Assembly (NCBI GenBank): GCA_963793265.1
Contig: CAWBZI010000002.1
Location: 800,001-864,000, forward strand
Length of the DNA: 64,000 nucleotides
Reading direction: 5' to 3'
DNA from: an uncultured cyanobacterium
GTDB taxonomy: Bacteria; Cyanobacteriota; Cyanobacteriia; Phormidesmidales; Phormidesmidaceae
A program made the translations under genes and the position numbers. How positions within the stretch are numbered: position 1 is the stretch's first letter; every line of letters starts with the position of its first letter. This document shows, piece after piece, positions 12,734-52,232 of the stretch. Below the pieces are notes generated by a model. The model was not told the DNA's origin. It searched no databases and was given only the letters and a program-made list of their open reading frames with translations.

Positions 12734-14346
12734 TTGCTGAAGCTGAATTTGAACTTTCTTAAGCGTTTTACAAATAAAAAGACATTGCTAATAATGTCTG
12801 GGCCTTGGGCGCTGCTACTCGGCGGAACGCTTATGGGCCTTGCGCCTGTAAACGCTTGGCCGCTGGCCTGGATAGCAATGGTGCCGCTGTGGACGCTCTC
12901 GGTTCAGCCGTCGCAATCTCTGCGAAAAACGCTCTCCTACGCCGCTATTTGGGGCGCGGCCTATCACGGCATAGCGCTCTCTTGGGTAAGGGGCCTGCAT
13001 CCGATGATGTGGATGGGCGTGCCCTGGCTAGGCAGCATTGCGGTAACCCTATTCTCATGGGCCTTCATTACGCTATGGGGCGTGGCGATTGGTGTGATTT
13101 GGACGGGGCTGATGGTGGCTTTGAGCAGGCGGGTTAGCCAAAGCGGCAGATCGCTCACTGGTCTGTCACGGGTTTTAATCGGGACAGCGCTGTGGTGCAC
13201 AATTGAATGGATTTGGAGCAAAGGGCCGCTGTATTGGTCGCCCGTTAACTACACCCAAAGTCCTTATAATCTGATGGCTTTGCAGCTTGGGCAGCTATCG
13301 GGGCCGTTGACTATCAGCGCCGCGATTTTGGCCGTTAATGGACTGTTGGCTGAGGCTTGGATAAGTGCTTGGACACATAAGGCGCGTTCTGCTCTTTTGT
13401 ATGCGATCGCCCTATTTACAGCCATCCACCTACTTGGCTTTGGCCTCTACAGCCGCCCCTTAGCTAGCGGCCCAGATAATGCAATAACAGTGGGCCTGAT
13501 TCAGGGCAACATCCCCAGCAGCCAAAAGCTAACGGCGCAGGGCGTCAAAGCATCTCGACAGGTCTATTTAAAAGGATACGAGTCTTTAGCAGCTAAAGGC
13601 GCGGACTTAGTGATCACGCCTGAAGGGGCGATACCGCAGGAATGGAACGCCTTTTTACAAGATCAGAATGTGTTTCAAAGAGCCGTTATTAAAGCGGGCG
13701 TACCGCTGCTTTTAGGAACGTTTGTTCATCAGCAGATTGACGAACCGCTAACGCCGCTAACGCAAAGTCTACTGATGCTAACGTCCGGTGACGATTCTGA
13801 CGGTGAGATTGCCGGACGCTACAACAAAATAAAGCTGGTGCCTTTAGGAGAATATATTCCGTTTGAGCCGGTGATTGGCGCGATTGTTAACCGGCTATCG
13901 CCCTTTGGCGAAAGTATGATTGCCGGGCGCGCCGATCAGCAGCTAGAAACGCCTTTTGGCCCGATAGTCGCTGGAATTTGCTATGAGTCGGTGTATCCAG
14001 AGCTGTTTCGAGCGCAGGCAAAAGCAGGTGGACAGGCTATTTTTACAGCGTCTAATAACGATCCTTATCCGCCGCGCATGATGATGCAGCACCACGGACA
14101 AGATGTGATGCGCGCTGTGGAAACCGATCGGTGGGCGGTGCGCGTGACAAATACGGGATTTCGGGCGTCGTTGATCCTCGGGGGCGATCGCGCTGGCTTT
14201 CTACACCCAACGAATATGCTACTCACCTTGCCACAATTCACCTGAGACAAACGCAGACGCTCTACGTACGCTGGGGAAACTGGCTGACACCTGTGTTGCT
14301 CTTAGGAAGTGTGATCGCGCTTTTCAACTACCGTCGCACGCCTTAG
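12734..14346 (+). CDS. lnt: Apolipoprotein N-acyltransferase, with one frameshift near 14156
   Basis: IQGNI, TPEGA, YNKIKLVPLGEYIP, ICYES. The C-terminus GISGVVDPRGR...TLYVRWGNW continues in ORF 14131..14346. ACGGGATT lacks one G relative to T-G-I. Confidence 0.9.
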
Positions 14347-15998
14347 GCCGATAAATTCAGCGGCAACTGCACGACAAACGTCGCCCCCTGACCAGGCACC
14401 GACTGACAAAACAGCCGCCCATGATGCTTTTCGGTAATGATGCTATAGCTAATCGAAAGGCCCATGCCCGTCCCTTTACCGACTGGTTTGGTCGTAAAAA
14501 ATGCATCGAAAATGCGAGCCTGTACCGCTTCAGGAATGCCGAGGCCAGTGTCCGCGATCGCTACCTCAGCCCAACTATCGCCGCCTAGCGTTTTAAGACT
14601 TGTGCGTAACGTAAGCTTTCCGCGATCGCTTTTTTCCTGGCACGCTTCTCGGCGCTCACGTTCACGCTCGTTCCTTGCCCACGCCTCGTCAATCGCATCA
14701 ATCGCGTTAGAAATAATATTCATCAACACCTGATTGAGCTGACCTGGATAGCAAGCCACCTGAGGCAGCGGGCCATAATTGCGCACGACCTCAACGGCTG
14801 GCACCTCAGCAGACGCCTTCAGCCGATGCTGCAAAATCAGCAGCGTACTCTCTATACCCTGATGAATATCAACAGACTTCAGCCCGGTTTCATCCGACCT
14901 TGAAAAATTGCGTAGCGACAGCACAATCTGCCGAATGCGCCGTGTACCGACTTCCATAGAGCTTAAGATCTTAGGCAAATCGGCGCGCACAAACGCCAGA
15001 TCCGCCGCTTCGATCTCATCTTGAATCTCAGCAACAGGCGTAGGATAGTGCGTTTGATAGCTGTCCATTAAGTTGAGTAAATCCGTAGCATATTCGCGAA
15101 TTGGATCTAGATTGGCATGAATGAAATTAACCGGGTTATTAATCTCATGAGCAACCCCAGCTACGAGCTGACCTAAGCTCGACATTTTTTCACTCTGCAC
15201 CATCTGCACCTGCGCCTGCCTGAGTTCAGCAAGCGTGTATTCAAGATCTTTAGCCTTCTGCTGAAGCGTTGCCTCTGATAGCTGAAGCTCTTGATGGCTA
15301 GTTTCGAGCTGCTGCTTAGCCTGGCGCAAACTATCTTCAGCCGCCCGGCGACGGAGAATATATTGATTAATTAAATAGAGCAGCACTACCCAGGCAATCA
15401 GCAAAATCCAAAAGCTGACCATGCTAAAAACGCTGGAGAGAAATAAACCTTCACCGTAATTTTTGAGATTGGTATTCACTTCAGCGCTGAGTATGTCTGA
15501 CCAAGCTCGCATACCGCTAGCTGAGATTTCTTTTTGGGCCTGATAAGTATCGCTAAACAAAAGCGCTAGCGCCTGCTGCGGCTTCTCAATCCGTACTAGC
15601 CTAAAGGCCGCATTTTCTATCTCAATCAGCCTGGAGCTGGCTTTTGTAATCGGCTCTACTTCTAAGTTGTAGGCATCGGCATTAAGATCCACAACCTGAT
15701 CGATAGACTCAATCAGTCTGGGCTCAAAGGCTCTGTAGCGTGCTTCCCACGATAAATCTCCTGTGGCTGCCGCTAAGCGAGCTGACATTGTGAGCACTTC
15801 GTTGTAGTAGCTAATTTCGTCGCTAAGACGCTGAAGCTGAAAGTCGGTAGTGATGCCACGCTTGAACCCCTGAGAGATCTTGGCCGTATTAAAGCTGCCA
15901 ATCGCAACCAGCATCAGACTAATGACGACCGCTATTGTAAGGACGGGCATTAGGAAGTCATTAGATAGCCGACTAGGCCGATGCAAAGCGAGTTTCAT
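14343..15998 (-). CDS. Membrane-bound sensor histidine kinase
   Basis: Two TM segments; H-box VAHEINNP, N-box QVLMNIISNAIDA, DTGLGI, FFTTKPVGKGTGMGL. Confidence 0.93.
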   Translation of the reverse strand: MKLALHRPSRLSNDFLMPVLTIAVVISLMLVAIGSFNTAKISQGFKRGITTDFQLQRLSDEISYYNEVLTMSARLAAATGDLSWEARYRAFEPRLIESIDQVVDLNADAYNLEVEPITKASSRLIEIENAAFRLVRIEKPQQALALLFSDTYQAQKEISASGMRAWSDILSAEVNTNLKNYGEGLFLSSVFSMVSFWILLIAWVVLLYLINQYILRRRAAEDSLRQAKQQLETSHQELQLSEATLQQKAKDLEYTLAELRQAQVQMVQSEKMSSLGQLVAGVAHEINNPVNFIHANLDPIREYATDLLNLMDSYQTHYPTPVAEIQDEIEAADLAFVRADLPKILSSMEVGTRRIRQIVLSLRNFSRSDETGLKSVDIHQGIESTLLILQHRLKASAEVPAVEVVRNYGPLPQVACYPGQLNQVLMNIISNAIDAIDEAWARNERERERREACQEKSDRGKLTLRTSLKTLGGDSWAEVAIADTGLGIPEAVQARIFDAFFTTKPVGKGTGMGLSISYSIITEKHHGRLFCQSVPGQGATFVVQLPLNLSA

Positions 15999-16081
15999 GA
16001 GCGCCGAAGACGGGAGGTTTTGCTATCGCAGCATTCCCGAATCCAACTTAAATTGATAGAAGCTTGATAGAGCGATGGAGC

Positions 16082-18115
16082 TTACTTGCATAGCAGCTTG
16101 CTGATTTCAGTAGCCTGTAGCGGACTGCTCAGTAAAAATCCCTGCCCGTGCGGACAGTCCAAACTCACTAGAGCATCTAACTGCTGCTGAGTTTCAATGC
16201 CTTCGGCAATGACGCTCATATTGGCACTCCGACCGAGATCAATAATCGTCTTAATAATTTCTGTACCCCCGATACTGTCTATACCCTCAACGAAAGTGCG
16301 GTCAATCTTTAGCGCGCCCACGTTGAGCTGATGCAGACGGCTCAGCGAAGAATGACCCAGGCCGAAGTCATCAACACAAAGCCCCAAACCCAAAGCATGA
16401 AGCTGCTGCAAAGCGACCATAACAGCCGGGTCGCTGCTGAGTAGCACCTGCTCTTCTATTTCTAATAAGAAAGCAGAGGGCGGGAGCTGATAGTCCGCTA
16501 GCATGTCGCGCCAATAGTCGATTAACTGCGGGCAGCAAATTTGGACTAAAGACAAATTGAGGTGTATCTGTAGGTTGTTTTCAGGCAGGCAGTCGCGCCA
16601 CGCTTTAAGCTGACAGCAGGCGGTCTGAATAATTTGATGGCACAGATCGACGAGAAGACCGATGTCGTTAGCGATCGCAATAAACTCACTCGCCTCTAAA
16701 CAGCCATGCTGCGGGTGATGCCAGCGCAAAAGTGCCTCAAACCCAGCTATTCGCGCATTCTCCAGACCAAAAATAGGCTGATAATACAGATGAAACTCAC
16801 TTTTTTCTAATCCTTGACGCAGCTCACTTTCTAGCATCAGTCGGGTTTGGCCGCTACCTTTAGTCGCCGCGTCAAATACGACGAATCGCTGCGCATCATC
16901 AATCGAGTTGTCTTGAATGAGAATAGGCGATGTAGATGTCTCAAGCGCGTTTTTAGATGACTTCAGGGTGCGCTGATGCTGCTCAAGCTGGGCTTGAATT
17001 TTAGCTTTGGCCTGCTGCTTGGAACGCGCCTTAGCCCGATACATAGCGACATCGGCATCTCTGATTGCGGCTTCAGGATGCTTGTAGCCTTGATTGCTAA
17101 AGGTAATGCCCACGCTAGCGCCGATTGAAATTTGGCGATCGCCGACTAAAAACGGCAGACTAAGCTGCTCTTGAAGCCGCTGCACCACTACAAAAACATG
17201 CTCCTCGTTTGGAATATCGTCTAGCAGTACGGCGAACTCGTCGCCACCTAAGCGGGCCACCAAGTCACTCTTGCGCAGCAGCAGCTTGATTTGCTCAGCG
17301 ACATACTGAAGTAGCTGGTCGCCAACATCATGACCGAGCGCATCATTCACCTGCTTAAACTCGTCAAGATCAAGAAAGAGAACGGCGTATAAATGGTTAG
17401 GTTGACGATTTGCAAGCTGAATAGCCTGATCGAGCCTTTGTGAAAAATAGCTGCGGTTAGGGAGCCCGGTTAGCGGATCGTGAAGTGCACTGTGCCTTAA
17501 AGCCGCTTCTCTTTTGAGTAGCTTTGTTTGAGCCTTAAGCAGTCGATGCAGTGCTGAAGTCAGCCCGGCAGTGCGCTCATTAACGCGGTGCTCCAAATTA
17601 TCGTTAGCAGACTTAAGCAGATTCGCCCGATAGATTAGCTCAAGCTGAGCCACGACCTGCCTGCTCAAAACCAATAGCCCATGTTGTTGGGGCGCTGTAA
17701 GCTGGCGAGGTTGGTAGTCGATCACGCACAGAGAACCCAAAGCGTGACCATCAGGTGTTATTAGCGGAGCCCCTGCATAGAATCGAATATGGGGCTCACC
17801 TGTCACCAGCGAATTAGCTTTGAAACGATCGTCTTCTTGAGCATTCTCGACGACCAAAAGACCTGACTGCTGAATTGTTTGATTGCAAAAAGCAATATTA
17901 CGGGGCGTTTCGTTCACCGTCATGCCAATTTTTGACTTGAACCACTGGCGGTCGGCGTCTATCAGGCTGATAAGAGCCGTTGGCGTTTGGCAGATGTGAG
18001 CAGCCAACGAAGTAATATCGTCATAAACTGGCTCAGGAAGCGTATCTAAGACGTTATAGCCTTGGAGCTTCGCTAGGCGAAGGGTTTCTTTCGCTGGCCC
18101 AAAATCTGCTGTCAT
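16082..18115 (-). CDS. GAF-GGDEF-EAL diguanylate cyclase/phosphodiesterase
   Basis: GAF (IRFYAGAPL), HDPLTGLPNR, RKSD I-site followed by GGDEF, FEALLRW, DDFG. Confidence 0.93.
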   Translation of the reverse strand: MTADFGPAKETLRLAKLQGYNVLDTLPEPVYDDITSLAAHICQTPTALISLIDADRQWFKSKIGMTVNETPRNIAFCNQTIQQSGLLVVENAQEDDRFKANSLVTGEPHIRFYAGAPLITPDGHALGSLCVIDYQPRQLTAPQQHGLLVLSRQVVAQLELIYRANLLKSANDNLEHRVNERTAGLTSALHRLLKAQTKLLKREAALRHSALHDPLTGLPNRSYFSQRLDQAIQLANRQPNHLYAVLFLDLDEFKQVNDALGHDVGDQLLQYVAEQIKLLLRKSDLVARLGGDEFAVLLDDIPNEEHVFVVVQRLQEQLSLPFLVGDRQISIGASVGITFSNQGYKHPEAAIRDADVAMYRAKARSKQQAKAKIQAQLEQHQRTLKSSKNALETSTSPILIQDNSIDDAQRFVVFDAATKGSGQTRLMLESELRQGLEKSEFHLYYQPIFGLENARIAGFEALLRWHHPQHGCLEASEFIAIANDIGLLVDLCHQIIQTACCQLKAWRDCLPENNLQIHLNLSLVQICCPQLIDYWRDMLADYQLPPSAFLLEIEEQVLLSSDPAVMVALQQLHALGLGLCVDDFGLGHSSLSRLHQLNVGALKIDRTFVEGIDSIGGTEIIKTIIDLGRSANMSVIAEGIETQQQLDALVSLDCPHGQGFLLSSPLQATEISKLLCK

Positions 18116-18426
18116 AGGTTGGTGATTAGCGCGAAACGATTGGCTCTAAGTGACTTGAGCGAATCTATATAGGTGAATTGACTAGAGAGGAATGCTGAAT
18201 CGATAGATCGCACAAGAAAAGCCGATTTGTGGCTAAGTATTTTAAGTATAGGATTAGAACATTGATTTAAATAAAAACCGTCTGCCTCAGTTAAAATACT
18301 TAGATGGTTATAGCACAGCGACAAGAATAGACTAGATCCAGCTTGCTTTAGTAGCAAAAGCTACTTAGTCAGAGGACTTCAATACATAAGCAAATAAGTA
18401 TTAAAGTTCTTAAAAGGTGCAGTGTC

Positions 18427-19485
18427 TTATCTGGTTGTAGCCGCATCGCACCAGTTTAAAACTCGATTCCAGGCCCACCAGCGGTCAGGATCTTTGATCT
18501 GCTGCTGACAAGCCCGGCTACTGATATAGCCCACATGGCCACCTTCTGAAGTCAGAATCAGATCTATGCACTCATTTTCCGCACAAGTCGCCTCAATTTC
18601 TTTAACTAGCGCCGGTTCAAATAGTGGATCATCCGCAGCATAGAGAATCAGCGTGGGCTTTTTGAGTTCGGGCAAAACATATAAGCCGCTGGTGATGGTG
18701 TAGTACTCTTCTACAGAACTAATCCCCAACCGGGAAATAACAATTTCGTGATCAAAGCTCCATATGCTGTGCACGCGCTCAACGGCTTGCGGATCGAACG
18801 CGGCAGGGTGATCTTGCTGAAGCTGGTAAAGGAGCTGTTTGAGCTTGCGAGTAATGGCCTTTTCTAAGTATTTACCCGTAGGATGATTCACTAAGTACTG
18901 AAGACTTCGCAACGACTCTAGCGCCGGGCAAATCACCGCACAGCCGCCGATATCATCTAGCGTCAAGTCTAAATCTGTTCCCCATTTGTCAATTGACTGC
19001 GCCGACTTTACGCCCCAAAGTGCCAGCAGCCCTCCTAAGGAAAATGCTGTAAACCAGAAGGGAGCAGGCGCGCCCATTGCCTTTACTGCTGCTGCAATTC
19101 GCACAAAATCTTCGCCTTCGTATAGGCCATCTGACGTCATCGCGGGTGAAAGCTTTGCCGTTTTGCCGTGCGCGCGCCAGTCAAACACAACCACTGCGTA
19201 GCCGCGGGCGTAGGCTTTGCGGGCCATAATTTGCAGGAACCACTGATCGTCTAAGTCGCCTGTGATGCCGTAGGTGCCAATGATGGTTTTGGTCGCGCCT
19301 GGCGGAATGGCAACTCGCCCAAAGATAGGGACGCCGTTTGCACCGATGAATATCTTTTCTTGAAATACTGGCTCAGGTTCGCTTAGCGTGTTTTGCCAGT
19401 TGTGGCTCGCTCGCAGTCCTGTATAAAGGGTCATCAGCAGACCGCTGTTGAGTGGCCAGGGCGCGCAGTAGGGAGGCGGATTCAT
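18427..19485 (-). CDS. YheT-like alpha/beta-fold hydrolase
   Basis: FDWRAHG, AFSLGG, AADDP, GGHVGY. Confidence 0.85.
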   Translation of the reverse strand: MNPPPYCAPWPLNSGLLMTLYTGLRASHNWQNTLSEPEPVFQEKIFIGANGVPIFGRVAIPPGATKTIIGTYGITGDLDDQWFLQIMARKAYARGYAVVVFDWRAHGKTAKLSPAMTSDGLYEGEDFVRIAAAVKAMGAPAPFWFTAFSLGGLLALWGVKSAQSIDKWGTDLDLTLDDIGGCAVICPALESLRSLQYLVNHPTGKYLEKAITRKLKQLLYQLQQDHPAAFDPQAVERVHSIWSFDHEIVISRLGISSVEEYYTITSGLYVLPELKKPTLILYAADDPLFEPALVKEIEATCAENECIDLILTSEGGHVGYISSRACQQQIKDPDRWWAWNRVLNWCDAATTR

Positions 19486-19622
19486 GTATGTAGACGCGAC
19501 GATCTTTCTAGGATACAGATCATCTTACGACCTACGCTTACATGTGGCCTCTAGTAAAAGGCTAGGAACCGACTACATTGCCTGACTTCGATACTGGATA
19601 ATGTCTCGTTTGCATCCGCTCT

Positions 19623-19871
19623 TTATGTAACGGTGACACATCCTGCTTCTTTAAGAATCCGCTTTGTGGCAGCCGGGTATCTATGTAGCGATATTAGCGG
19701 ACGAACGGGGCGACTTTCCAGATGGCCGCCGCAGTTTGGGCAGGTGCCGTTGAGCATTTCGTCGGCGCAGTCTTGGCAGAATGTGCAGTCAAAGGTGCAG
19801 ATCATCGCTTCTGATGAGTCGGATAGCAAATCTTTGTTGCAGCATTCGCAGTTGGGTCGAATTCCTAGCAT
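19623..19871 (-). CDS. DUF1272-family small Cys-rich protein
   Basis: RPNCECC...ICTFDCTFC..C...CPNCGG...RPVR pattern. Confidence 0.85.
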   Translation of the reverse strand: MLGIRPNCECCNKDLLSDSSEAMICTFDCTFCQDCADEMLNGTCPNCGGHLESRPVRPLISLHRYPAATKRILKEAGCVTVT

Positions 19872-20044
19872 GTTGGAAGTTATTAAAAACCGCTAGCTTT
19901 ATTTGTATCTGAGAATCTCAAATGTGGAGCGTTTTTGACTCAATAATTCATGAGCTGAAAGCATGGAGCGGTGCTTTATTTTCTCATGGTAGAGGGGCTG
20001 AGAATGCTGTCAGAATTGAGAGTGTTGAGGTGTGAAAGGCAGAT

Positions 20045-20707
20045 ATGACTAAAAAGCTGATTGATTTGAGCCATACCGTGGAAGATGGCATGGTTACCTA
20101 TAAGGGCATTCCGGCTCCTTTGATCTGTGATTTTCTGACCCGTGAGGCTTCTAAGGCTCACTATGCTGAGGGGACGACTTTTCATATTGGCAAGATTGAA
20201 ATGGCGGCGAATACGGGTACTTATCTAGATTCGCCGTTTCATCGGTATGCGGATGGGAAGGATTTGTCTGAGCTGAAGCTGGAGGCGATCGCGGATCTCG
20301 ATGGCATTCTCTTTCATGCCAAACCCGATCAAACCACTATCGGGCCTGAGCTATTTGCTGACGCTGATGTTCGCGGTAAGGCGGTCTTAGTTCATACGGG
20401 CTGGGATCGGCACTGGCGAACGGATCAGTATTTTGAAAACCACCCGCATTTGAGTGAGGCTGCTGCTGCGTTGCTAAGAGAGTCGGGCGCTACGCTGGTT
20501 GGGATTGATTCTTATAATATTGACGGGACGAAGGATGGTAGGCGGCCTGCGCATTCGATTTTGCTGGGCGCGGATGTTCCTATTGTTGAGCATATGTGCA
20601 ATTTGCAGAACTTGCCTGATGGTGGCTTTAAGTTCAATGCGGTGCCGGTAAAGGTGAAGAAGTTTGGGACGTTTCCGGTTAGGGCTTATGCGGTTGTTGG
20701 TGCATAG
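20045..20707 (+). CDS. Cyclase-family (kynurenine formamidase-like) metal-dependent hydrolase
   Basis: IDLSH, NTGTYLDSPFH, VGIDS, H..LL...IVEH, FPVRA. Confidence 0.88.
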   Translation: MTKKLIDLSHTVEDGMVTYKGIPAPLICDFLTREASKAHYAEGTTFHIGKIEMAANTGTYLDSPFHRYADGKDLSELKLEAIADLDGILFHAKPDQTTIGPELFADADVRGKAVLVHTGWDRHWRTDQYFENHPHLSEAAAALLRESGATLVGIDSYNIDGTKDGRRPAHSILLGADVPIVEHMCNLQNLPDGGFKFNAVPVKVKKFGTFPVRAYAVVGA

Positions 20708-21614: not shown

Positions 21615-21618
21615 ACGT

Positions 21619-23085: not shown

Positions 23086-23086
23086 C

Positions 23087-26340: not shown

Positions 26341-26352
26341 GAAACCACTGCC

Positions 26353-44064: not shown

Positions 44065-44360
44065 AGGAGAAAGTTGAGTAAAGGAAGGGTTTAGCTTTTG
44101 CGTGGTAAATGTGACAAATAGATACCACGGTTCCGGCAGTCTACGGATTGCCAAATGCCTCTCTTTATTAACATTTGGTGAGCGCCTAATTAGCTTCACA
44201 AAAGCTTTCCAAAAGAGTGCTTTCCTTATAAGCCGTCAGTAAAGCGAGTCGGTAAAATGCCCGCTCACTTTACGAGTTTGCTATGCTTAGCTGGTAATTC
44301 TACCTACCGGCGGGTTAGTTACGTAGCTATTTGCCCGCCGATAAAATCTACTAGGGCAAC

Positions 44361-45426
44361 ATGAGCCACTCAAGCTTACCTTCAGCGCCGACGCCGAATC
44401 TCTCAGTGGTCATCCCGGTATACAACGGTGGCGAAGCCTTTCAAGCGATGCCTGGTGGCACTAGCACGCTGGTCAACGCCGTCTATGGAGGTGATTGTCG
44501 TCTCAGATGGCGACTCGGACGGAAGCTGGCGAGTGGCTGAAACCTTTGGCGCACAGGTGATCCGCTTGAGCGAATCTAAAGGCCCGGCGCGCGCGCGAAA
44601 CGTAGGCGCTAAGGCTGCTAAGGGCGACATTGTTTTCTTTGTCGATGCTGATGTCGAAATCCTGCCGGGCACGCTGGGCCGCGTCATCGAAAGCTTTCGC
44701 GCGAATCCTCAGCTAACGGCGCTCATTGGCTCCTACGACGACGCGCCCGGTGCGCCCAACTTTCTCTCTCAATACAAAAATCTCTTTCACCACTACACGC
44801 ACCAAACCGCCTGCTTAGATGCCTCTACCTTTTGGGGAGCCTGCGGCGCGATTCGTCGGCCTATTTTCCAGGCAGTCGGCGGCTTCGATGAACACTACCG
44901 CAGGCCCTGCATCGAAGATATTGAGCTGGGCTACCGGCTAAAGCGGGCAGGCCACCTCATTCATCTGCGCAAAGATATTCAGGTCAAGCATTTGAAGCGG
45001 TGGACGCCCGTTTCGCTACTGCGCGCCGATGTGTTTTACCGAGCCCTGCCGTGGACGGCCCTATTATTACAGGTTCGCCAGCACCATCCTGCACAGTACG
45101 AGCGATTTACGAGTGATCTAAATCTTAAGTGGAATAGCCGAATTAGTGTGATGCTGGTCTATGGTTTGCTGCTGTCGGTTGCGATCGCGCCCTGGCAAAA
45201 TAGCACCCTGCTCGTAGCCGTCTTATTCGGTGTGGCCTTAATCCTGATCAACCTTCCGGTCTATCAGTTCTTCAGTCGAAAACGCGGCTGGTTATTTGCA
45301 CTTCAAACCGTACCCTGGCACTGGCTGTACTTTTTCTACAGCGGACTCGCCTACGCGATCACCCTGGTGCGCCATCAGCTCCGTCAACACCTACCCACCC
45401 ACACGATTCGTCAGCAGCCCAACTAA
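44361..45426 (+). CDS. GT2 glycosyltransferase with C-terminal TM helices; one frameshift at ~44440
   Basis: From ATG 44361 reads LSVVIPVYNGGEAF, then an extra T; continues GPARARN, FVDAD, EDIELG. Confidence 0.88.
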
Positions 45427-45485
45427 CCGTTCAGCCGTTAGTATCAACCGTCTTACACTCACACTTTTTCAGGGGTTTTCCACAA

Positions 45486-46967
45486 ATGGTTTCCAGCACT
45501 GTTGTTATCGGCGCAGGCCCAGCGGGTTTGGTCACCGCTTACGAACTGGTCAAGAACGGCGAGCAGGCAACCGTATTAGAGCAGTCTGATAAAGTTGGCG
45601 GCATCTCTCGCACTGAGACATACAAAGGCTACCGCTTCGACATTGGCGGGCATCGTTTTTTTACCAAGGTAGGCGAAGTTCAAGAACTGTGGAAAGAGAT
45701 TTTGGGCGACGACTTTATTCAAGTGCCGCGCATGTCTCGGATTTACTATCGCAACCGTTTTTTTGACTATCCTCTATCAATCACCAACACCCTCAAGAAC
45801 TTAGGCCCAATCGATAGCTCGCTCATTGTCTTGAGCTACTTAAAGGCCCGCGCCCAGGCCAAGCTCAACCCCGATGTAGAAGCTGATAACTTTGAAGAGT
45901 GGGTCACAGAGCGCTTTGGCTCTCGTCTGTATCGCACCTTTTTCAAGTCATACACCGAGAAAGTATGGGGCATTCCCTGCGACAAAATTCAGGCAGAATG
46001 GGCAGCGCAGCGGATCAAAGGGCTTTCGCTTTCTAAAGCGGTAATCAATGCGATGTTTGGCAGCAACGATACCAAAACGCTGATTAAAGAGTTTGACTAT
46101 CCGGTGCTAGGCCCCGGCATGATGTGGGAGAAGTGTCAGTCTCTCATTGAAGAAACCGGTTCTGTTGTGGCAATGAATACGCGCGCTTTAAAAGTAGAAC
46201 GCACGGGGATGAAGATCGACCGGGTGATTGCGCAAAAGAATACCGCAGCCGGTAGCGAGACTTTTGAAGTCACAGGCGATAATTTTGTCTCTAGTATGCC
46301 GGTGAGTGCTTTGGTAAAGCGGCTCGATCCACCAGCACCGCCTGAAGTGCTAGAAGCGGCAAATGGGCTCAAGTATCGGGACTTTTTGATTGTGCCGATT
46401 GTAGTGGATATTAAATCTTTGTTTCCTGACAACTGGATTTATATTCACAGCCCAGAGTTTAGAGTGGGCCGCATTCAGAACTTTAAGAACTGGAGCGAGG
46501 CGATGGTGCCAGACTTAAGCAAAACCTGCTTGGGGATGGAGTACTTTTGTAGCGAAGGCGACGATATTTGGGAGAGAGACGACGCAGCGCTAATCCAGCT
46601 TGCGAGTGAAGAGATTGTTGGATTAGGACTGGTGCCTGATATCAGTATGGTAGAAGATGGCACGGTGATTCGGCAGAAGAAGGCTTATCCGGTTTATGAC
46701 GGTGAGTATCGCAAGCATTTAGCCGTCTTGCAAGACTATATGGAAGGCTTTGAGAACTTGCAGACGGTGGGTCGTAATGGGATGCATCGGTATAATAATC
46801 AGGATCATTCGATGCTGACGGGGCTATTGGCTGCGAAGAATATTTTGGGTGAGGAGCATGATCTGTGGGGGATTAATACGGAGCGCTCTTATCATGAAGA
46901 CTTTACGAAAGAGCAGTGGGCGAAGCTAAAAGAAGAGAAGGAGAGAGAGTTGAGTGCTGCGAGGTAG
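45486..46967 (+). CDS. FAD-dependent oxidoreductase (protoporphyrinogen oxidase / UDP-galactopyranose mutase-like) within the glycan operon
   Basis: GAGPAG, GGISRT, DIGGHRFF, YTEKVWG, GRNGMHRYNNQDHSM. Confidence 0.85.
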   Translation: MVSSTVVIGAGPAGLVTAYELVKNGEQATVLEQSDKVGGISRTETYKGYRFDIGGHRFFTKVGEVQELWKEILGDDFIQVPRMSRIYYRNRFFDYPLSITNTLKNLGPIDSSLIVLSYLKARAQAKLNPDVEADNFEEWVTERFGSRLYRTFFKSYTEKVWGIPCDKIQAEWAAQRIKGLSLSKAVINAMFGSNDTKTLIKEFDYPVLGPGMMWEKCQSLIEETGSVVAMNTRALKVERTGMKIDRVIAQKNTAAGSETFEVTGDNFVSSMPVSALVKRLDPPAPPEVLEAANGLKYRDFLIVPIVVDIKSLFPDNWIYIHSPEFRVGRIQNFKNWSEAMVPDLSKTCLGMEYFCSEGDDIWERDDAALIQLASEEIVGLGLVPDISMVEDGTVIRQKKAYPVYDGEYRKHLAVLQDYMEGFENLQTVGRNGMHRYNNQDHSMLTGLLAAKNILGEEHDLWGINTERSYHEDFTKEQWAKLKEEKERELSAAR

Positions 46968-47113
46968 GAGAGGAGGGCACGGTGGTGTCTGTTCTAGCGT
47001 TATACGTCGGAAACCCACCAACGCTAAACACAGACAGTCAATAAATCCAGACAAACACAAACACAACAAAGCAAAGAAGTGTTCTAACCCCTACATATCG
47101 CCCTCAAAACACC

Positions 47114-48184
47114 ATGCTCCCTACTCAATCAGCAGCAGCAACAAACTTACAAACCTCGATTAAAAGCCCTCTCAGCTTTTCAATCATTATCGAAACCGAG
47201 AATCTGGCCAGCGCAGACCTCCCCGGACTCTTTCGCAGCCTGGACGCTTTAAAGAACCAAACCCTCTCCCCCCTCCAGGCCAAAGAAGTCCTGCTAGTCG
47301 AAACAGGCGATGTGCCGCCCGAACTGCTCAATCAAATTCGCCAGCAGTATCCCTGGGTCACCCCTCGGCGCATTGACCCCAGACTGGAATACTATCAGGC
47401 CAAGATGCGCGGCGTGGAACTCACCACCGGAGAGGCCGTGGTTCTGTTTGACTCAGACTGCGTGTACAACCCCGGCTGGCTGGCTGCGATGCTGACGCCG
47501 TTTGCACGAGACGAGGTGCAGATGGTCGCTGGCGAAACGTCGATGAATATTACCGGGCCGTATGAGATGGCGATGGCGATCGCATACATCTTCCCCCGCT
47601 ACAGCGAGCCCGCCGCCAACAGCCAGAATAACAGCCAGCTAAAGCCCACAGGCGGCTACTTCTGCAACAATGTAGTGTTCAAGCGATCGCTCCTCACCCA
47701 GCTCCCTATCCCCGGCAAACTTCCTGCCTACCGGGGCAACTGCGTCATCCACGCTCACCAGCTCGCGGCCAATCAGCACACCATCTGGCAGCAGCCGCAG
47801 GCCCAGGCCCTCCACGCACCGCCCAACGGCCTAGCCCACTTCACCTCGCGCTTTCTCATGCTCGGCTACGACGCACTGTGCGTCTCCCGCTTTGCCGCCG
47901 ACCCGATGGCCGAAATAGATCCCGATCGCCCCGGCACCTTTCGCCCGCTGCGAGACTTAGCCGTTGCCGTCATGATTTTGATAGGCCAGCTCAAAACCTA
48001 TGCGCAGCGGATTGTTCTTATTCTGCGTGAAGATATTCGCTATGCTCTGTACCTACCGCTAGCGCTACCCATTAGTGCAACAGCTCTGGCACTTTATACT
48101 GTCGGCCTAGTCATCGCCTACGTCAGACCGGCCTTTTGGCTGAACAACAAAGCCGCCTTAGAAACCCTGCTCGAACACTCATGA
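47114..48184 (+). CDS. Divergent GT2-family glycosyltransferase
   Basis: FSIIIET, VLFDSDC (DxD), C-terminal TM segments, operon context. Confidence 0.75.
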   Translation: MLPTQSAAATNLQTSIKSPLSFSIIIETENLASADLPGLFRSLDALKNQTLSPLQAKEVLLVETGDVPPELLNQIRQQYPWVTPRRIDPRLEYYQAKMRGVELTTGEAVVLFDSDCVYNPGWLAAMLTPFARDEVQMVAGETSMNITGPYEMAMAIAYIFPRYSEPAANSQNNSQLKPTGGYFCNNVVFKRSLLTQLPIPGKLPAYRGNCVIHAHQLAANQHTIWQQPQAQALHAPPNGLAHFTSRFLMLGYDALCVSRFAADPMAEIDPDRPGTFRPLRDLAVAVMILIGQLKTYAQRIVLILREDIRYALYLPLALPISATALALYTVGLVIAYVRPAFWLNNKAALETLLEHS

Positions 48185-49659
48185 GTAAGGACGCTGGCCG
48201 TAGCTTTGGCCGTAATTTTATCGGCGGCACCTTTTGGGTGTTCTTAGCTGAGGCGCTGATTTTTCCGACCGGGCTGGTGACAGCAGGCATCTTAACGCGG
48301 CGGCTGGGGACGGATGGCTATGGCGTGCTGACGCTGGTGGCGGTGCTGGTGAGCTGGATAGAGTGGACGATTACGTCTATTTTTTCACGGACGGCGATTA
48401 AGTTTGTCAGCGATGCTGAAGACTGGCGACCCGTGGGCACGGTGATTGCGCAGCTTCACTTTGGGCTGGGGGCTGTGGCGACGGTGGCGCTGTGGGTGTT
48501 TGCCCAGCCGATTGCAAGGCTGTTGGATATTCCAACGTTTGCGCCCTATCTGCGGCTGTTTGCCCTCGATATTCCGATTTTTTGTTTGGCCTATGCGCAC
48601 CGGCAGCTATTGGTGGGGCGAGGGTTGTTTCGAGTGCGGGCGATCGCTTCTGCCGGGCGGTGGACGATGCGACTGGTTCTGATTGCGCTGCTTGTAGGTT
48701 ACGCAGACTGGTCAATCGAAGGGGCCATCATCGGCAGCTTAGGCGCATCGGTCGTGGAGCTGATGGTAGCTCGCTGGTTTATTCGGCCTCCTTTATTGCA
48801 GCAGTCAAGCTATCCGCCACAGCGATTGTTTGGCTATGCCCTGCCGCTGTTTTTGTTTGCGACCAGCCTGCGTCTGTTCGACAAGCTCGATCTGTTCATG
48901 CTGAAGATTCTAGGCGGCACAGTCGCAGAGGCAGGCGTGTATGGAGCCGCTCAGAACCTGGCTTTTGTGCCAGGAATCTTTGCACTTTCGTTTTCACCGC
49001 TGCTGCTCTCTACGCTCAATAGCACGCTCAGATCGGGAGACTTAGTGCAGGCTAAGCAACTGGGCTTAAATTCAGTGCGAACGGTGATTGCGTTACTGCC
49101 GTTTGCAGCGCTGGCAGCGGCGGCTTCGGTGTCGATTGTCAGCGTTGTTTATGGTAAAGACTTTGCGGTGGCTGGGCCAGTGCTGGCGGTGCTGATTTTT
49201 GCGGCGATGGCGCTGGTGATGATTTCGGTGGTGACGGCGATTTTGACGGCGGCGGGCAGACCTTATTTAACGGCGATTTTGGTTGCGCCGATGCTGCCGC
49301 TCTCAGCGGTGGGGTATGGGCTATTTGTGCCAAGCTACGGGGCGATGGGAGCCTGCTGGGTGAATTTAGGCGCGGCGGCTACGGGTGCGGTGGCGGCAAT
49401 GGGGGCGCTGTACCAGATTTGGCGGATTTCGGTGCCGGTGACGACGTGCGCTAGGAGTGCGATCGCCTGCGTTTTGATTCATGCGATCGCGATTCGTTGG
49501 ATCACTCCCGATCCCTCTTTTGTCCTCAAGATTCTGTTGCTTTCTGGCATGATTCCAGTAGTCCTGTTCTGCCTGGGCGAACTCAATAAATCTGAGCGCC
49601 AGCTTATCGGCGGTTGGATTATGCAGCAGCGCTGGATTAAGCGGCTCAGGATGAAGTAA
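48181..49659 (+). CDS. Wzx-like oligosaccharide flippase (MOP family)
   Basis: Many TM helices; LTRRLGTDGYG, D.FML..L.G...AGVYGAA; ATGA overlap with the upstream gene. Confidence 0.88.
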   Translation: MSKDAGRSFGRNFIGGTFWVFLAEALIFPTGLVTAGILTRRLGTDGYGVLTLVAVLVSWIEWTITSIFSRTAIKFVSDAEDWRPVGTVIAQLHFGLGAVATVALWVFAQPIARLLDIPTFAPYLRLFALDIPIFCLAYAHRQLLVGRGLFRVRAIASAGRWTMRLVLIALLVGYADWSIEGAIIGSLGASVVELMVARWFIRPPLLQQSSYPPQRLFGYALPLFLFATSLRLFDKLDLFMLKILGGTVAEAGVYGAAQNLAFVPGIFALSFSPLLLSTLNSTLRSGDLVQAKQLGLNSVRTVIALLPFAALAAAASVSIVSVVYGKDFAVAGPVLAVLIFAAMALVMISVVTAILTAAGRPYLTAILVAPMLPLSAVGYGLFVPSYGAMGACWVNLGAAATGAVAAMGALYQIWRISVPVTTCARSAIACVLIHAIAIRWITPDPSFVLKILLLSGMIPVVLFCLGELNKSERQLIGGWIMQQRWIKRLRMK

Positions 49660-50568
49660 GTGAATAAGATGACTTCACTGGTTTCTGTCATTATCCCGGT
49701 ATACAACGACGCCGAGCGCCTCAAGCTTTGCCTGGCTCGCCTCGCTGAGCAAACGTACGCATCGTATGAGGTGATCGTGGTTGATAATGGTTCGGCAGAT
49801 CTCACCGCAGTAAAAGCCGTGGTGGATACCTACGAATTTGCGAGCCTGACGACAGAGGAAAGGCCGGGTTCTTATGCCGCGCGGAATCGGGGGATTGCGA
49901 TCGCCCAAGGTCAGATTCTTGCTTTTACCGATGCCGACTGCATCCCGGCAGTAGATTGGATTGAGCAGGGCGTAAGCCAGTTACAGGCGCATCCTGACTG
50001 TGGATTTGTGGCTGGGGCTATCAACATTTTCATGCGCAATCCTGATCATCCCGTAGAGCTATTTGAAAGCGTGATGGGGCTTTCTCAGCAAACGTTTGTA
50101 GCGTGCGATCATTTTGGAGCCACTGCTAATCTTTTCACCCGCCCTGATGTTTTTGAGCGCGTCGGTGTCTTTAATGCGGCGCTGAAGTCTAGCGGCGATC
50201 GCGAATGGGGACAACGTGTATTTGCCGCCGGGCTACCGCAAATTTACGCCAAAACCGTCTGTATCGATCACCCGGCCCGTCCTTCTTTTGCCGAGCTATC
50301 GCGCCAGGCAAGCCGTCATGCAGGTGGCTTTTACGACCTCCGCTGCCGCCAAAATCCGTCTTTCATCAGCCGCAACCTCACCTATCTCAAGCTTTTAGGC
50401 TTCCATCTCATGCCACCGGTTATGTTTGCGATTTACACCGCTCGCCACCCTCAGCTCAAAACATGGCAGCAGCGGGCCAAGGTCGTCTTCACGCTGGCTT
50501 TTGTGAGGCTGATCACCATAAAGGCACTGCTATTGCTAAAGTTTGGCGGAATTGCAACGCGAGAGTAG
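49660..50568 (+). CDS. GT2 glycosyltransferase
   Basis: VSVIIPVYN, VVDNGS, YAARNRG, FTDADC. Confidence 0.92.
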   Translation: MNKMTSLVSVIIPVYNDAERLKLCLARLAEQTYASYEVIVVDNGSADLTAVKAVVDTYEFASLTTEERPGSYAARNRGIAIAQGQILAFTDADCIPAVDWIEQGVSQLQAHPDCGFVAGAINIFMRNPDHPVELFESVMGLSQQTFVACDHFGATANLFTRPDVFERVGVFNAALKSSGDREWGQRVFAAGLPQIYAKTVCIDHPARPSFAELSRQASRHAGGFYDLRCRQNPSFISRNLTYLKLLGFHLMPPVMFAIYTARHPQLKTWQQRAKVVFTLAFVRLITIKALLLLKFGGIATRE

Positions 50569-50612
50569 TGAACTTCTTTTATGCTGTGGTTAAAGGTAAG
50601 AGAGAGATAAGA

Positions 50613-52232
50613 GTGACCGTACGTTCGCAGCAGGTGGAGAAGGGAAATTGGATGGGGCGCGATCGCCAGATAGCAGGTGTGATTGAAACTGCGCTCATTG
50701 TCACGTTCATCGTTTTAGGCATTGTCGGCATTTTGCACCATGAGCTGTGGCGCGACGAAACCCAGGCATGGCTGCTCGCACGCGACAGTTCTTCACCGCT
50801 CAATTTGTTGCGCAACTCAAAGTACGAAGGCCATCCGCTGCTGTGGCACTACTGCCTGTATGGGCTCAGCCGTATTAGCCATAGCCTGGTCATGATGCAG
50901 GGATTTAACCTGCTGCTAGCGGTGGGATCGGTGGTGCTAATCGTAAAGAGATCACCCTTTACGCTCCTGCAAAAAGGGCTGATAGTATTCGGCTATTTCA
51001 CCCTGTACGAATATTCCATGCTTGCCCGCAGCTATGGGCTGAGTATGTTTTTGGTCTTTCTGTTTTGCGCGCTCTACTGTCAGCGGCGACCTCTCTTTTG
51101 GGGGCTAACGGTGGCGCTGGCACTGCTGGCAAATACGAGTATCTTAGGCTTAAGCATGAGTTTAGCGCTGGCGATCGCCCTCTACTACCGCCTCACCTTA
51201 TCACCTGAACGCAAGGCGCTTGGAGCCCATTTGTTTGTCGTGATGGCTGCGTGGCTGGCCTCAGCCTTTCAGATTGGGCGATCGCTCCTACAGCCAATGG
51301 GCATAGAAGGCTTTGACGCCGATGCTAGAGCCGCCGCGGCTGGCCTGCCTACTGCGCAAGGGGCCGTACAGCACACCGCCGAATCTACGCTGATTGCAGG
51401 CAAGCTCGAAAACCTCGACAAGGTTCTACAAATTTTCCTCAAAGGCTTTTTACCCCTGCCCACCTTCAACTTTCACTTTTGGAACGAGCACCCGCTAGAG
51501 AACACGATGCTGCGAACCAGCGCTGGCCTATGGCTACTGCTGCTGAGCGCGCTATTAGTGGGCCTACTACTTCTCATCGTCTTTCAACTACTGCAAAAAA
51601 CGCCGCTTTTTCTCTCTATTTATGGGCTGGGTAGCTTGGCTATGCTCGGCCTGTTTATATTCGTACATCGGGGCACTACTCGCCACCACGGCCACCTGTT
51701 CATTCTGCTACTGGCCTGCCTGTGGCTTGCCCAGTGGTCGCGCCGCCACTTCGCCACAGAACGCACCAAAATATTCTCTCTCCTATTCACCGGGCTCCTT
51801 TTCGTCCAGGCATTCTCAGGCATCTATGCCTACACCGCCGACATTCTCTATCCATTTTCAGCCAGCTACCAAACCGCCCAAATCATCAAAACCAGCGACC
51901 TCAACGATCTGCCCATCATTGGCATCAATCAGCGTCCTGTTTCTCCTCTATCAGCCTACTTAGATCGTCCTATCTATTACCCTGAGGCCCGGCAGTTTGG
52001 CAGCTTTTGGGACATCTCGTATCCTGAATATAAAGAAGAGAGTTTGGTCGTGGAGGCAATTGAAGACTTTGCTGAAGACCATTCGAGCTTTTTGGCGGTG
52101 CTGACGGCTCCGGTGGATGTGGAGGATTTTGGTGCGATCACCCGCGCCAGCTACCTTACCTATGTGGGGCCGAGCATTGTCGAAGACGAAGCTTTCTACC
52201 TCTATCGAATAGATTCGATTAAGGCAGAATAA
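50613..52232 (+). CDS. Polytopic membrane protein, possibly a GT-C-fold glycosyltransferase
   Basis: First TM followed by HELWRDE; YEGHPLLW; ARSYGL; many TM helices. The ORF track's upstream extension overlaps the GT2 gene and is not credible. Confidence 0.7.
   Translation: MTVRSQQVEKGNWMGRDRQIAGVIETALIVTFIVLGIVGILHHELWRDETQAWLLARDSSSPLNLLRNSKYEGHPLLWHYCLYGLSRISHSLVMMQGFNLLLAVGSVVLIVKRSPFTLLQKGLIVFGYFTLYEYSMLARSYGLSMFLVFLFCALYCQRRPLFWGLTVALALLANTSILGLSMSLALAIALYYRLTLSPERKALGAHLFVVMAAWLASAFQIGRSLLQPMGIEGFDADARAAAAGLPTAQGAVQHTAESTLIAGKLENLDKVLQIFLKGFLPLPTFNFHFWNEHPLENTMLRTSAGLWLLLLSALLVGLLLLIVFQLLQKTPLFLSIYGLGSLAMLGLFIFVHRGTTRHHGHLFILLLACLWLAQWSRRHFATERTKIFSLLFTGLLFVQAFSGIYAYTADILYPFSASYQTAQIIKTSDLNDLPIIGINQRPVSPLSAYLDRPIYYPEARQFGSFWDISYPEYKEESLVVEAIEDFAEDHSSFLAVLTAPVDVEDFGAITRASYLTYVGPSIVEDEAFYLYRIDSIKAE

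What the first reader, a model, noticed from the sequence alone, without database searches (positions are those of the whole stretch)
13400..51200. Base composition flips from G-rich to C-rich across HIP1 sites
Seen: at many GCGATCGC sites the sequence 5' of the site is G/T-rich and the sequence 3' of it is C/A-rich, within one gene and for genes on either strand. At 32544 the 30 nt before hold G15/C8 and the 30 nt after hold G2/C16. At 22918 the counts are G10/C6 and G3/C15. Similar by eye at 30125, 39125, 43510, 45181, 47683 and 51171. Established: HIP1 is over-represented in cyanobacteria, overlaps methylation targets and has no settled function. Inference: a strand-asymmetric mutational footprint of repair or DNA processing started at HIP1. 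Examples were picked by eye, so selection bias is possible.
Basis: partly seen in the sequence, partly recalled or inferred. Interest (0 to 1): 0.72.

Follow-up and report, generated by a model that had tools for sequence, protein, structure and literature searches.

The report
HIP1 palindrome polarises its flanking DNA
In this cyanobacterium, and more weakly in most HIP1-rich relatives tested, each DNA strand is G-rich just before and C-rich just after the abundant palindrome GCGATCGC, an imprint that is strongest at long-conserved copies and likely records a one-directional repair or recombination step starting at this long-unexplained word.

Summary
Confirmed, and genome-wide. 5,879 of 6,884 HIP1 sites are G-rich 5' and C-rich 3' (random positions 3,068). 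At fourfold sites GC skew is about +0.58/-0.60 at 4-10 nt, decaying over about 50 nt plus a ~0.9 kb tail. It is equal for both gene strands, all three frames and all 57 100-kb windows. The T/A part is weak. It needs the whole octamer: other palindromes, bare CGATCG, GATC and E. coli GATC show none. Sites shared by three relatives skew 0.45; sites in one genome only, 0.14. Substitutions lean the way that sustains it, but total rate is unchanged (0.657 vs 0.652). Of 118 HIP1-rich genomes, 89 show it (z>3) and three of one genus are reversed; those three lack one RecJ paralogue (a lead). It does not track the conserved C5 methyltransferase or mutY; Vsr and NucS were not found in 5 genomes. Best reading (0.55): directional strand removal and resynthesis anchored at HIP1 resolves mismatches in favour of the 5' strand; enzyme unknown, mutation versus fixation bias unresolved. 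Not found in the papers searched; this scan noted it before, repeatedly in this genome and once in another.

The parts
208..59557 (.). 70 HIP1 octamers (GCGATCGC) of the window, first at 208, last at 59550; each is the centre of a G-rich 5' flank and C-rich 3' flank on both strands
   Evidence: 70 matches against 2.02 expected; 60 of 70 lean G-to-C in 30-nt flanks, totals G698/C396 before and G423/C665 after
13403..51178 (.). The 51 HIP1 sites inside the finding's span
   Evidence: 42 of 51 lean G-to-C, 6 opposite; T/A 29 positive, 18 negative
32514..32581 (.). HIP1 at 32544-32551 with 30-nt flanks, inside the lycopene beta-cyclase gene (31644-32891, +)
   Evidence: G15/C8 before, G2/C16 after; gene name from NCBIfam NF045687
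22888..22955 (.). HIP1 at 22918-22925 with 30-nt flanks
   Evidence: G10/C6 before, G3/C15 after
30095..30162 (.). HIP1 at 30125-30132 with flanks
   Evidence: G13/C6 before, G4/C12 after
39095..39162 (.). HIP1 at 39125-39132 with flanks
   Evidence: G14/C4 before, G6/C9 after
43480..43547 (.). HIP1 at 43510-43517 with flanks, inside ileS (40963-44064, +)
   Evidence: G13/C4 before, G6/C12 after; ileS by TIGR00392
45151..45218 (.). HIP1 at 45181-45188 with flanks
   Evidence: G10/C5 before, G7/C11 after
47653..47720 (.). HIP1 at 47683-47690 with flanks
   Evidence: G6/C7 before, G3/C16 after; a second HIP1 lies at 47576
51141..51208 (.). HIP1 at 51171-51178 with flanks
   Evidence: G8/C5 before, G2/C14 after
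26259..26381 (.). Three close HIP1 sites (26259, 26308, 26374); the middle one leans the opposite way, as expected where neighbouring flanks overlap
   Evidence: 26308: G5/C10 before, G10/C7 after; effects of the two neighbours add in the genome-wide fit

Best explanation
Each DNA strand is G-rich 5' of HIP1 and C-rich 3' of it, likely because the full octamer is a start point for a frequent, one-directional strand-processing step. In the likely sequence, an unidentified factor recognises GCGATCGC and nicks or loads on either strand. The strand running 3' from the site would be removed and resynthesised 5' to 3', usually for some tens of bases and sometimes for about a kilobase, with the strand lying 5' of the site as template. 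Any mismatch or lesion in the tract would then be settled in favour of the 5' strand: changes such as A>G, C>T, T>G and C>A on that strand are kept and their mirror images removed, so the total rate stays the same while G builds up and C is lost. SHOWN: the skew, its shape, octamer specificity, dependence on site conservation, independence from gene strand and background strand skew, unchanged total rate, and the lean of substitutions. INFERRED: the nick or loading, its direction, the kind of mismatch and the enzymes. The opposite chemistry (3'-to-5' removal of the 5' strand with biased refilling) would give the same composition and is not excluded; the RecJ pattern tips the choice only slightly.
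For: Fourfold GC skew +0.585/-0.608 (+ genes) and +0.582/-0.584 (- genes) at 4-10 nt; also outside called ORFs, +0.27/-0.26. Transition-only sites move in mirror image: C/(C+T) about 0.29 on the 5' side, 0.46-0.53 far, 0.62 on the 3' side; G/(G+A) 0.67, 0.50-0.56, 0.37; all 8 fourfold families and all 4 following bases shift. Best of 7 kernels is additive with scales of 52 and about 915 nt (power-law and stretched forms fit almost as well), which looks like a tract-length distribution. Both flanks shift in 57 of 57 100-kb windows, by the same amount in G-rich and C-rich windows. Bare CGATCG (788 strand-counts) gives 0.0. No symmetric base pairing across the site. Skew is 0.45 at sites in 3 of 3 genomes, 0.30-0.36 in 2 of 3, 0.14 in 1 of 3; the GTGATCGC variant is skewed where its orthologue is HIP1 (14 sites, 0.40) and not where none is (14 sites), so it is a ghost of a lost site. 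In 229 genes of a trio, 6 of 6 complementary substitution pairs lean the sustaining way (z 2.8, 2.2, 2.1, 2.1, 1.3, 1.1) and total rate is 0.657+-0.023 near against 0.652+-0.022 far. The reach differs by lineage, as enzyme tract lengths would. The three reversed genomes each have one recJ-family gene where 75 of 80 genomes have two or more; in the one compared by sequence, the missing paralogue is the one intact in G000.
Against: No nick, enzyme or binding protein is shown; an earlier gel-shift study found no HIP1 complex (as cited in PMC13756078). The fitted rates imply a milder equilibrium (G 0.32, C 0.20) than the present composition (G 0.43, C 0.18); simulation shows the estimator shrinks toward uniform but only to G 0.37-0.39 from 0.43. 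The trio is close to a star, so polarity rests on an unrooted node. In a second trio (91 genes, weaker skew) nothing was significant and C>T against G>A leaned the wrong way (z -1.9). 26 of 118 HIP1-rich genomes show no clear skew at the one position surveyed and 3 are reversed. The RecJ pattern is essentially one clade, G119 (+0.165, 94% complete) also has one match, and the genomes are not independent (p 0.036 overstates). Orthologous flanks of one-genome sites are as skewed (0.15) as the carriers' (0.14), so some skew may predate those sites.
Confidence: 0.55

Rival explanations
1. Fixation bias rather than biased repair of new errors: HIP1 acts as a two-way Chi-like end point during natural transformation or recombination between chromosome copies, the strand 5' of HIP1 becomes the invading 3' tail, and alleles with G on that strand are transmitted more often (drive) or are selected.
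For: Reciprocal rate changes with unchanged total rate, and fitted rates milder than standing composition, are what a fixation bias gives. Homologous HIP1 sites raise integration up to 7-fold, and more than 100-fold when methylated (bioRxiv 10.1101/2024.09.10.611283). HIP1 abundance tracks DNA-uptake genes (PMC13756078). RecA prefers TGG repeats (PMC3763553, start of abstract only). The polarity matches a 3' tail ending at HIP1.
Against: Deleting addAB did not remove the HIP1 benefit. T is barely enriched although RecA's preferred tracts are GT-rich. Every codon context shifts alike. Short and long components vary and even reverse between lineages, which a conserved RecA preference does not predict.
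Confidence: 0.25
2. HIP1 is a break hotspot; resection leaves the 5' flank single-stranded and extra damage (cytosine deamination, translesion synthesis) accumulates there, as at meiotic hotspots.
For: 5 of the 6 favoured classes on the 5' strand are C>N or A>N, the classes named for one strand at human hotspot flanks (PMC7615360 section 4; the text does not say which side). The C-poor 5' flank fits an exposed 3' tail.
Against: Total rate is not raised (0.657 vs 0.652) and C>T on the 5' strand is 1.03+-0.10 of the far rate. G gain is as large as C loss and T hardly rises. T>G exceeds A>C, opposite to the A>N rule.
Confidence: 0.1
3. Elhai's G-methyl-C-directed mismatch repair: hemimethylated HIP1 marks the new strand after replication, and repair from that nick removes only errors lying on one side.
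For: Proposed on independent grounds (PMC4390886 section 3.4). G000 has a C5 methyltransferase orthologous across 54 of 80 genomes. C>T at position 2 is the commonest single change where HIP1 is lost (14 of 37 single changes at sites kept in 2 of 3). Half-sites show a weak shift on the expected side (-0.23, -0.21, -0.09).
Against: It predicts a lower rate near HIP1, which is not seen. Skew is strong in genomes with no match to that enzyme (G091 +0.27, G070 +0.19) and reversed in genomes that have it; m4C enzymes were not searched. E. coli GATC, the textbook case, shows no flip (1,550 vs 1,576). Half-site shifts are about 15% of HIP1's and differ by variant.
Confidence: 0.08
4. Artefact of codon or amino-acid context, gene strand, replication skew, hairpin formation or picking examples by eye.
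For: The examples were chosen by eye; amino-acid use does differ on the two sides; genes were called by a simple ORF finder.
Against: Holds at fourfold and twofold sites, on both gene strands, in all three frames (0.42, 0.38, 0.38), outside ORFs and in 57 of 57 windows; absent at 98 control palindromes; no complementarity across the axis.
Confidence: 0.01

Closest known systems
HIP1 (GCGATCGC) of cyanobacteria (Xu et al. 2018 PMC5861425; Elhai 2015 PMC4390886; Rodriguez-Cruz et al. 2026 PMC13756078)
   Same: Same word, about 1.2 per kb here, conserved between relatives.
   Different: A directional composition gradient in the flanks was not found in these papers: 'skew' and 'asymmetr' occur 0 times in the first two main texts and only in an unrelated sense in the third. 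Elhai reports short consensus extensions next to HIP1, not a gradient of tens to hundreds of bases.
Elhai's hypothetical G-methyl-C-directed mismatch repair, modelled on Dam/MutH of E. coli
   Same: A repair step anchored at HIP1 that decides which strand is kept.
   Different: The model has no fixed direction and predicts no flank skew in the part read; here the rate is not lowered, the C5 enzyme is not required, and E. coli GATC shows no such flip.
Chi sites with RecBCD/AddAB; HIP1 as a Chi-like site (Kamoku and Nielsen, bioRxiv 10.1101/2024.09.10.611283)
   Same: A short over-represented word with a polar effect on DNA 5' of it; HIP1 promotes integration.
   Different: Chi is non-palindromic and strand-biased (PMC5861425); HIP1 works on both strands whatever the background skew; addAB deletion left the HIP1 effect intact.
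Strand-asymmetric mutation around PRDM9/SPO11 meiotic break hotspots (Hinch et al. 2023, PMC7615360); purine skew flip at mouse hotspots (Smagulova 2011, recalled, not seen)
   Same: Motif-centred, mirror-image asymmetry of C>N and A>N changes over flanks of up to 1-2 kb.
   Different: There the rate is raised several-fold and the central 100 bp are symmetric; here the total rate is flat and the asymmetry peaks next to the motif. Bacterial, with no homologous machinery shown.
Replication-terminus GC-skew switch (general knowledge)
   Same: Same sign: G-rich before, C-rich after.
   Different: Occurs at about 6,900 points per genome, is several times larger than this genome's regional skew, and does not change with it.

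Membership tests
HIP1 | GCGATCGC strongly over-represented | tested here: met
   70 in the window against 2.02 expected; 6,884 in 5.68 Mb
HIP1 | Sites conserved between related genomes | tested here: met
   233 of 329 coding sites present in all three relatives at fourfold distances of 0.29-0.36; no control octamer was scored for conservation
HIP1 | A CGATCG methyltransferase (DmtC type) is encoded | tested here: inconclusive
   A 474-aa C5 methyltransferase at G000:C4 about 630.9-632.3 kb has orthologues in 54 of 80 genomes; its specificity was not tested
Dam/MutH methyl-directed mismatch repair | GATC itself is the signal | tested here: not met
   GATC outside HIP1 gives -0.04 or less in size, opposite sign; E. 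coli K-12 GATC shows no flip, 1,550 vs 1,576
Dam/MutH methyl-directed mismatch repair | MutH nuclease present | not tested
   Not searched here; PMC5101192 states mutH is absent from all cyanobacteria it examined
Elhai G-methyl-C mismatch repair (hypothetical) | Fewer substitutions close to the site | tested here: not met
   0.657+-0.023 near vs 0.652+-0.022 far; 0.457 vs 0.451 in a second trio; 'far' is only >250-300 nt and may lie within reach
Elhai G-methyl-C mismatch repair (hypothetical) | Depends on the C5 CGATCG methyltransferase | tested here: not met
   26 of 80 genomes had no match with this query, 9 of them with skew 0.108-0.267 among the strongest; median 0.08 vs 0.11, p 0.26; m4C enzymes not searched
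Elhai G-methyl-C mismatch repair (hypothetical) | Seven-base half-sites are active on one strand | tested here: inconclusive
   Weak shift on the expected flank only when pooled; the three variants disagree
Elhai G-methyl-C mismatch repair (hypothetical) | A nicking enzyme specific for the site | not testable with these tools
   Needs end mapping or biochemistry
Very-short-patch repair (Vsr) | Vsr endonuclease encoded | tested here: not met
   PF03852 not found in 5 of 5 genomes searched, G000 included
NucS/EndoMS mismatch repair | NucS encoded | tested here: not met
   PF01939 not found in 5 of 5 genomes searched, G000 included
Chi site | Non-palindromic and oriented with replication | tested here: not met
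   Palindrome; both flanks shift alike in 57 of 57 windows
Chi site | Read by RecBCD/AddAB | not tested
   Not searched here; published addAB deletion did not remove the HIP1 effect
Break-hotspot mutagenesis (meiotic type) | Raised substitution rate in the flanks | tested here: not met
   Total rate flat; C>T 1.03+-0.10 of far
Break-hotspot mutagenesis (meiotic type) | C>N and A>N excess on one strand | tested here: inconclusive
   5 of 6 classes lean so with z 1.1-2.8; T>G exceeds A>C; not repeated in the second trio

The most novel reading that the evidence does not exclude
HIP1 is the landing site of an undescribed, phylum-wide strand-choice system: a factor that reads the whole octamer, independent of the known C5 methylase, starts 5'-to-3' strand replacement with one of the two cyanobacterial RecJ-like exonucleases, and so sets which strand wins in repair and in uptake of foreign DNA; loss of that exonuclease flips the imprint. 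It would be the missing MutH/Chi equivalent of cyanobacteria and a force strong enough to rewrite silent sites and amino acids around thousands of points per genome.
Probability: 0.3. Interest if true: 0.92.

Novelty: new variant of a known kind. Interest (0 to 1): 0.8.

Why it matters
HIP1 has had no settled function for three decades. This footprint gives it a direction, two length scales (about 50 nt and about 1 kb), a strict eight-base requirement, and natural contrasts (strong, short-only, long-only, absent and reversed lineages). Those turn a vague link to 'repair or recombination' into specific assays: where the strand ends are, which strand wins a mismatch on each side, and which gene loss flips the sign. 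It also matters in practice: local composition, codon use and even amino-acid use (Val, Met, Glu, Gly up 5'; Thr, Asn, His, Ile, Pro up 3') depend on distance to HIP1, which can mislead codon-bias, selection and gene-transfer analyses in cyanobacteria, and it may explain why HIP1 placement changes transformation efficiency.

Tried and rejected
Hairpin or extended palindrome: complementarity across the axis is 0.254 observed vs 0.255 shuffled at 11-60 nt and lower than shuffled at 1-10 nt; rejected. Transcription or replication direction: rejected. CGATCG or GATC as the signal: rejected; 32 non-HIP1 CGATCG sites kept in 3 of 3 genomes gave only 0.14. GTGATCGC as an active variant: not supported; its skew follows lost HIP1 sites and the double variant GTGATCAC is flat (small numbers). 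Vsr, NucS: not found in 5 genomes. mutY: no association in 80 genomes, p 0.91. HIP1 density: no correlation with skew across 118 genomes, rho -0.10. Polarising with G000 itself: nearest relatives are only about 80% identical, so a trio of congeners was used. Mutation versus fixation from population variants: four public runs were laid on window 18001-38000; 285 variant places were found but only 40 were listed and no close outgroup exists, so no test was made. Gaussian, nearest-site-only, single-exponential and relative-position kernels fit worse than the two-scale kernel. Literature searches for a mouse hotspot skew paper and for Chi 'recombination islands' did not return them, so those comparisons are recalled. 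No structure or complex prediction was run: there is no candidate pair worth one.

Full report
OBSERVATION. The window is G000:C2:800001-864000 of a 5.68-Mb, 50.7% G+C genome. The best titled matches to its RelA/SpoT protein are Phormidesmis-titled and untitled cyanobacterial records at 80-91% identity. HIP1 occurs 70 times in the window against 2.02 expected and 6,884 times in the genome. 60 of 70 window sites, 42 of 51 in the finding's span and 5,879 of 6,884 genome-wide lean G before and C after; random positions give 3,068 of 6,884. Over all bases the skew is +0.42/-0.42 at 1-3 nt, +0.18/-0.19 at 11-20 nt and +0.06/-0.08 at 81-100 nt; the T/A part is only about +0.04/-0.06.

CONTROLS. Genes were called with a plain ORF finder (3,830 ORFs of 150 aa or more, 81% of bases). 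At fourfold sites the skew is +0.585/-0.608 for + strand genes and +0.582/-0.584 for - strand genes at 4-10 nt; it is weaker at first and second positions and is present outside ORFs (+0.27/-0.26). It holds for HIP1 in all three frames (0.42, 0.38, 0.38) and both flanks shift in 57 of 57 100-kb windows, by about 0.9-1.1 logit whether the window's background is G-rich or C-rich, so neither transcription nor replication direction explains it. Of 256 palindromic octamers, 99 had at least 200 informative sites; the 98 other than HIP1 average -0.013 (sd 0.048, highest 0.081) against 0.417. Flanks are not complementary across the site. In E. coli K-12, GATC has G..C at -12/+12 1,550 times and C..G 1,576 times, so the textbook MutH signal leaves no such flip.

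ANATOMY. On the coding strand fourfold sites 11-20 nt 5' of HIP1 are A .17, C .15, G .43, T .25; 3' of it A .19, C .46, G .14, T .21; beyond 500 nt A .20, C .28, G .25, T .27. Twofold sites move in mirror image, and every codon family and next base shifts. G gain and C loss dominate, so transversions as well as transitions must be asymmetric (inference). The best of seven kernels adds the effects of both neighbouring sites with scales of 52 nt (logit 1.49) and about 915 nt (0.62); power-law and stretched forms are close behind. The whole octamer is needed: after removing codon context, neighbouring sites and regional skew, bare CGATCG gives 0.0, half-sites give a weak and inconsistent shift, and only GTGATCGC (about 60% of HIP1's strength), GCAATCGC and GAGATCGC keep a two-sided signal. 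The bias reaches proteins: Val, Met, Glu and Gly are commoner 5' of HIP1 and Thr, Asn, His, Ile and Pro 3' of it.

ORDER OF EVENTS. In 229 orthologous genes of three congeners (G004, G007, G009), 233 HIP1 sites present in all three have skew 0.45, 59 present in two have 0.30-0.36, and 32 present in one have 0.14 (5 more one-genome sites had a variant beside them and too few bases). GTGATCGC is skewed where an orthologue is HIP1 (14 sites, 0.40) and not where none is (14 sites, 0.03 or negative). So the skew most likely builds after a site appears and lingers after it is lost. C>T at position 2, the cytosine methylated by M.Ssp6803I in Synechocystis (PMC6105098, passages), is the commonest single loss (14 of 37). 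Against a clean reading: the orthologous flanks of one-genome sites are equally skewed (0.15).

SUBSTITUTIONS. A general Markov fit on 31,216 fourfold columns (5,987 within 3-120 nt in all three genomes, 12,538 beyond 300 nt) gave, on the strand 5' of HIP1: A>G 0.572 vs T>C 0.408 (z 2.8), T>G 0.168 vs A>C 0.117 (2.2), C>A 0.096 vs G>T 0.061 (2.1), A>T 0.086 vs T>A 0.045 (2.1), C>T 0.532 vs G>A 0.472 (1.3), C>G 0.089 vs G>C 0.066 (1.1). Total rate was 0.657+-0.023 near and 0.652+-0.022 far (an earlier fit on 120 genes agreed). One member of each pair rises and its mirror falls, which fits a rule about which strand wins better than extra damage or extra protection. Caveats: the trio is near a star; the implied equilibrium (G .32, C .20) is milder than the present composition, only partly explained by estimator shrinkage in simulation; and a second trio in genus g44 (91 genes, weak skew) gave no significant pair and one leaning the wrong way. 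A polymorphism test could not be made.

DISTRIBUTION. All 30 loci from the own genus, G000's included, lean the same way. For the phylum, G and C were counted at position -13 (neutral to reading frame) in 281 genomes; 143 with fewer than 100 matches were dropped. Of 118 HIP1-rich genomes 112 are positive, 89 at z>3, 26 within +-3, and 3 at z<-3, all of genus g22; the median is +0.108 and G000 (+0.288) is second. The 20 HIP1-poor genomes pool at +0.02 with none beyond z 3. Kin are not independent and one position is a rough proxy. Fourfold profiles from fetched DNA show the reach differs: short and long in the own genus, about 25 nt only in Nodosilinea-titled loci, mainly 200-800 nt in g44, and reversed within 100 nt in g22 (pooled -0.32, -0.04, -0.14, -0.08, with T>A still positive).

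CANDIDATE GENES. Vsr and NucS were not found in 5 of 5 genomes. In 80 of the 118 rich genomes (chosen to span the range), skew did not track the conserved C5 methyltransferase (54 with a match; p 0.26) or mutY (45; p 0.91). 75 of 80 have two or more recJ-family matches; the five with one or none have skews -0.087, -0.078, -0.002, +0.045 and +0.165. The third reversed genome also has one. Two RecJ clades separate at about 30% identity; G180 keeps only the clade that is frameshifted in the G000 assembly and lacks the clade intact in G000; G156 and G218 are placed in the same clade by frame length and score only. This agrees with a review noting that Synechocystis PCC 6803 lacks recJ types found in other models (PMC5101192, passages). 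It is a lead resting on about one evolutionary event.

MECHANISM. Best reading (0.55): a factor that reads the full octamer starts removal and resynthesis of the strand running 3' from it, so the 5' strand serves as template and wins. The nick, direction and enzymes are inferred. Rivals: transmission or selection bias at a two-way Chi-like end point (0.25), damage on resected single strands (0.10), Elhai's nascent-strand repair (0.08), artefact (0.01).

WHAT IS KNOWN. Read: Elhai 2015 (PMC4390886; passages and section 3.4 part 1 of 2); Xu 2018 (PMC5861425; passages); Rodriguez-Cruz 2026 (PMC13756078; part 1 of 6 and passages); Kamoku and Nielsen (bioRxiv 10.1101/2024.09.10.611283; part 1 of 4 and passages); Hagemann 2018 (PMC6105098; passages); Cassier-Chauvat 2016 (PMC5101192; passages); Hinch 2023 (PMC7615360; passages and section 4); PMC3763553 (listing and start of abstract). 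The mouse hotspot skew flip and GT-rich islands around Chi are recalled only. Five searches on HIP1 or motif-centred skew returned no paper that, by listing or by the passages read, describes this gradient. The library lacks most subscription journals, no supplements were read, and those of the preprint are closed, so a buried mention cannot be excluded. Earlier notes of this scan report the same flip in at least eight other windows of this genome and in one other genome; they are not independent evidence.

VERDICT. A real, large, apparently undescribed property of a known element. It is filed as a new variant of a known kind (motif-centred strand asymmetry), not as a member of Dam/MutH, VSP, NucS or Chi systems, each of which failed a tested feature. 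Interest 0.8, because it makes the function of HIP1 directly testable.

Noticed in passing
window 21962-22750 (-) and 22885: The SelO/YdiU-like ORF covers only profile positions 105-344 of 462, and three public runs carry one more base behind 22885, so the gene looks frameshifted in this assembly, probably an assembly error.
   Followed up: partly
G000:C6 about 55600-57080 (L275): One of the two RecJ-like genes is split by a frameshift in the assembly; such splits were rare (2 of 281 proteins tested). Real or assembly error is unknown.
   Followed up: partly
G000:C5 about 247000-250300 (L271): The other RecJ-like protein is 1,078 aa, with roughly 470 extra C-terminal residues beyond the part shared with 577-674-aa orthologues.
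   Followed up: no
genus g22: G156, G180, G218, G076, G162: Three genomes have the opposite G/C polarity near HIP1, and two others of the genus have almost no HIP1: a natural contrast for finding the machinery.
   Followed up: partly
G000 whole genome: GAGCTC (7), GGCGCC (9), GCCGGC (10) and CCCGGG (6) are almost absent from 5.7 Mb, and the genome has several C5 methyltransferase genes: strong restriction-site avoidance.
   Followed up: no
window 18001-38000: Variants in public runs of near-identical populations come in tight clusters (for example 21209-21691, 24299-24323, 26175-26307), as recombined tracts would (40 of 285 listed).
   Followed up: no
G174 (L161-L163): HIP1-rich genome with no C5 methyltransferase match at all and no skew at position -13, yet fourfold sites within 100 nt lean +0.08 to +0.20 in 60 kb; the one-position survey can miss weak cases.
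   Followed up: partly
L190, L192, L195, L198, L200, L204, L206, L211, L240: Nodosilinea- and Shackletoniella-titled loci show the flip only within about 25 nt (+0.37, then 0.09 and about 0).
   Followed up: partly
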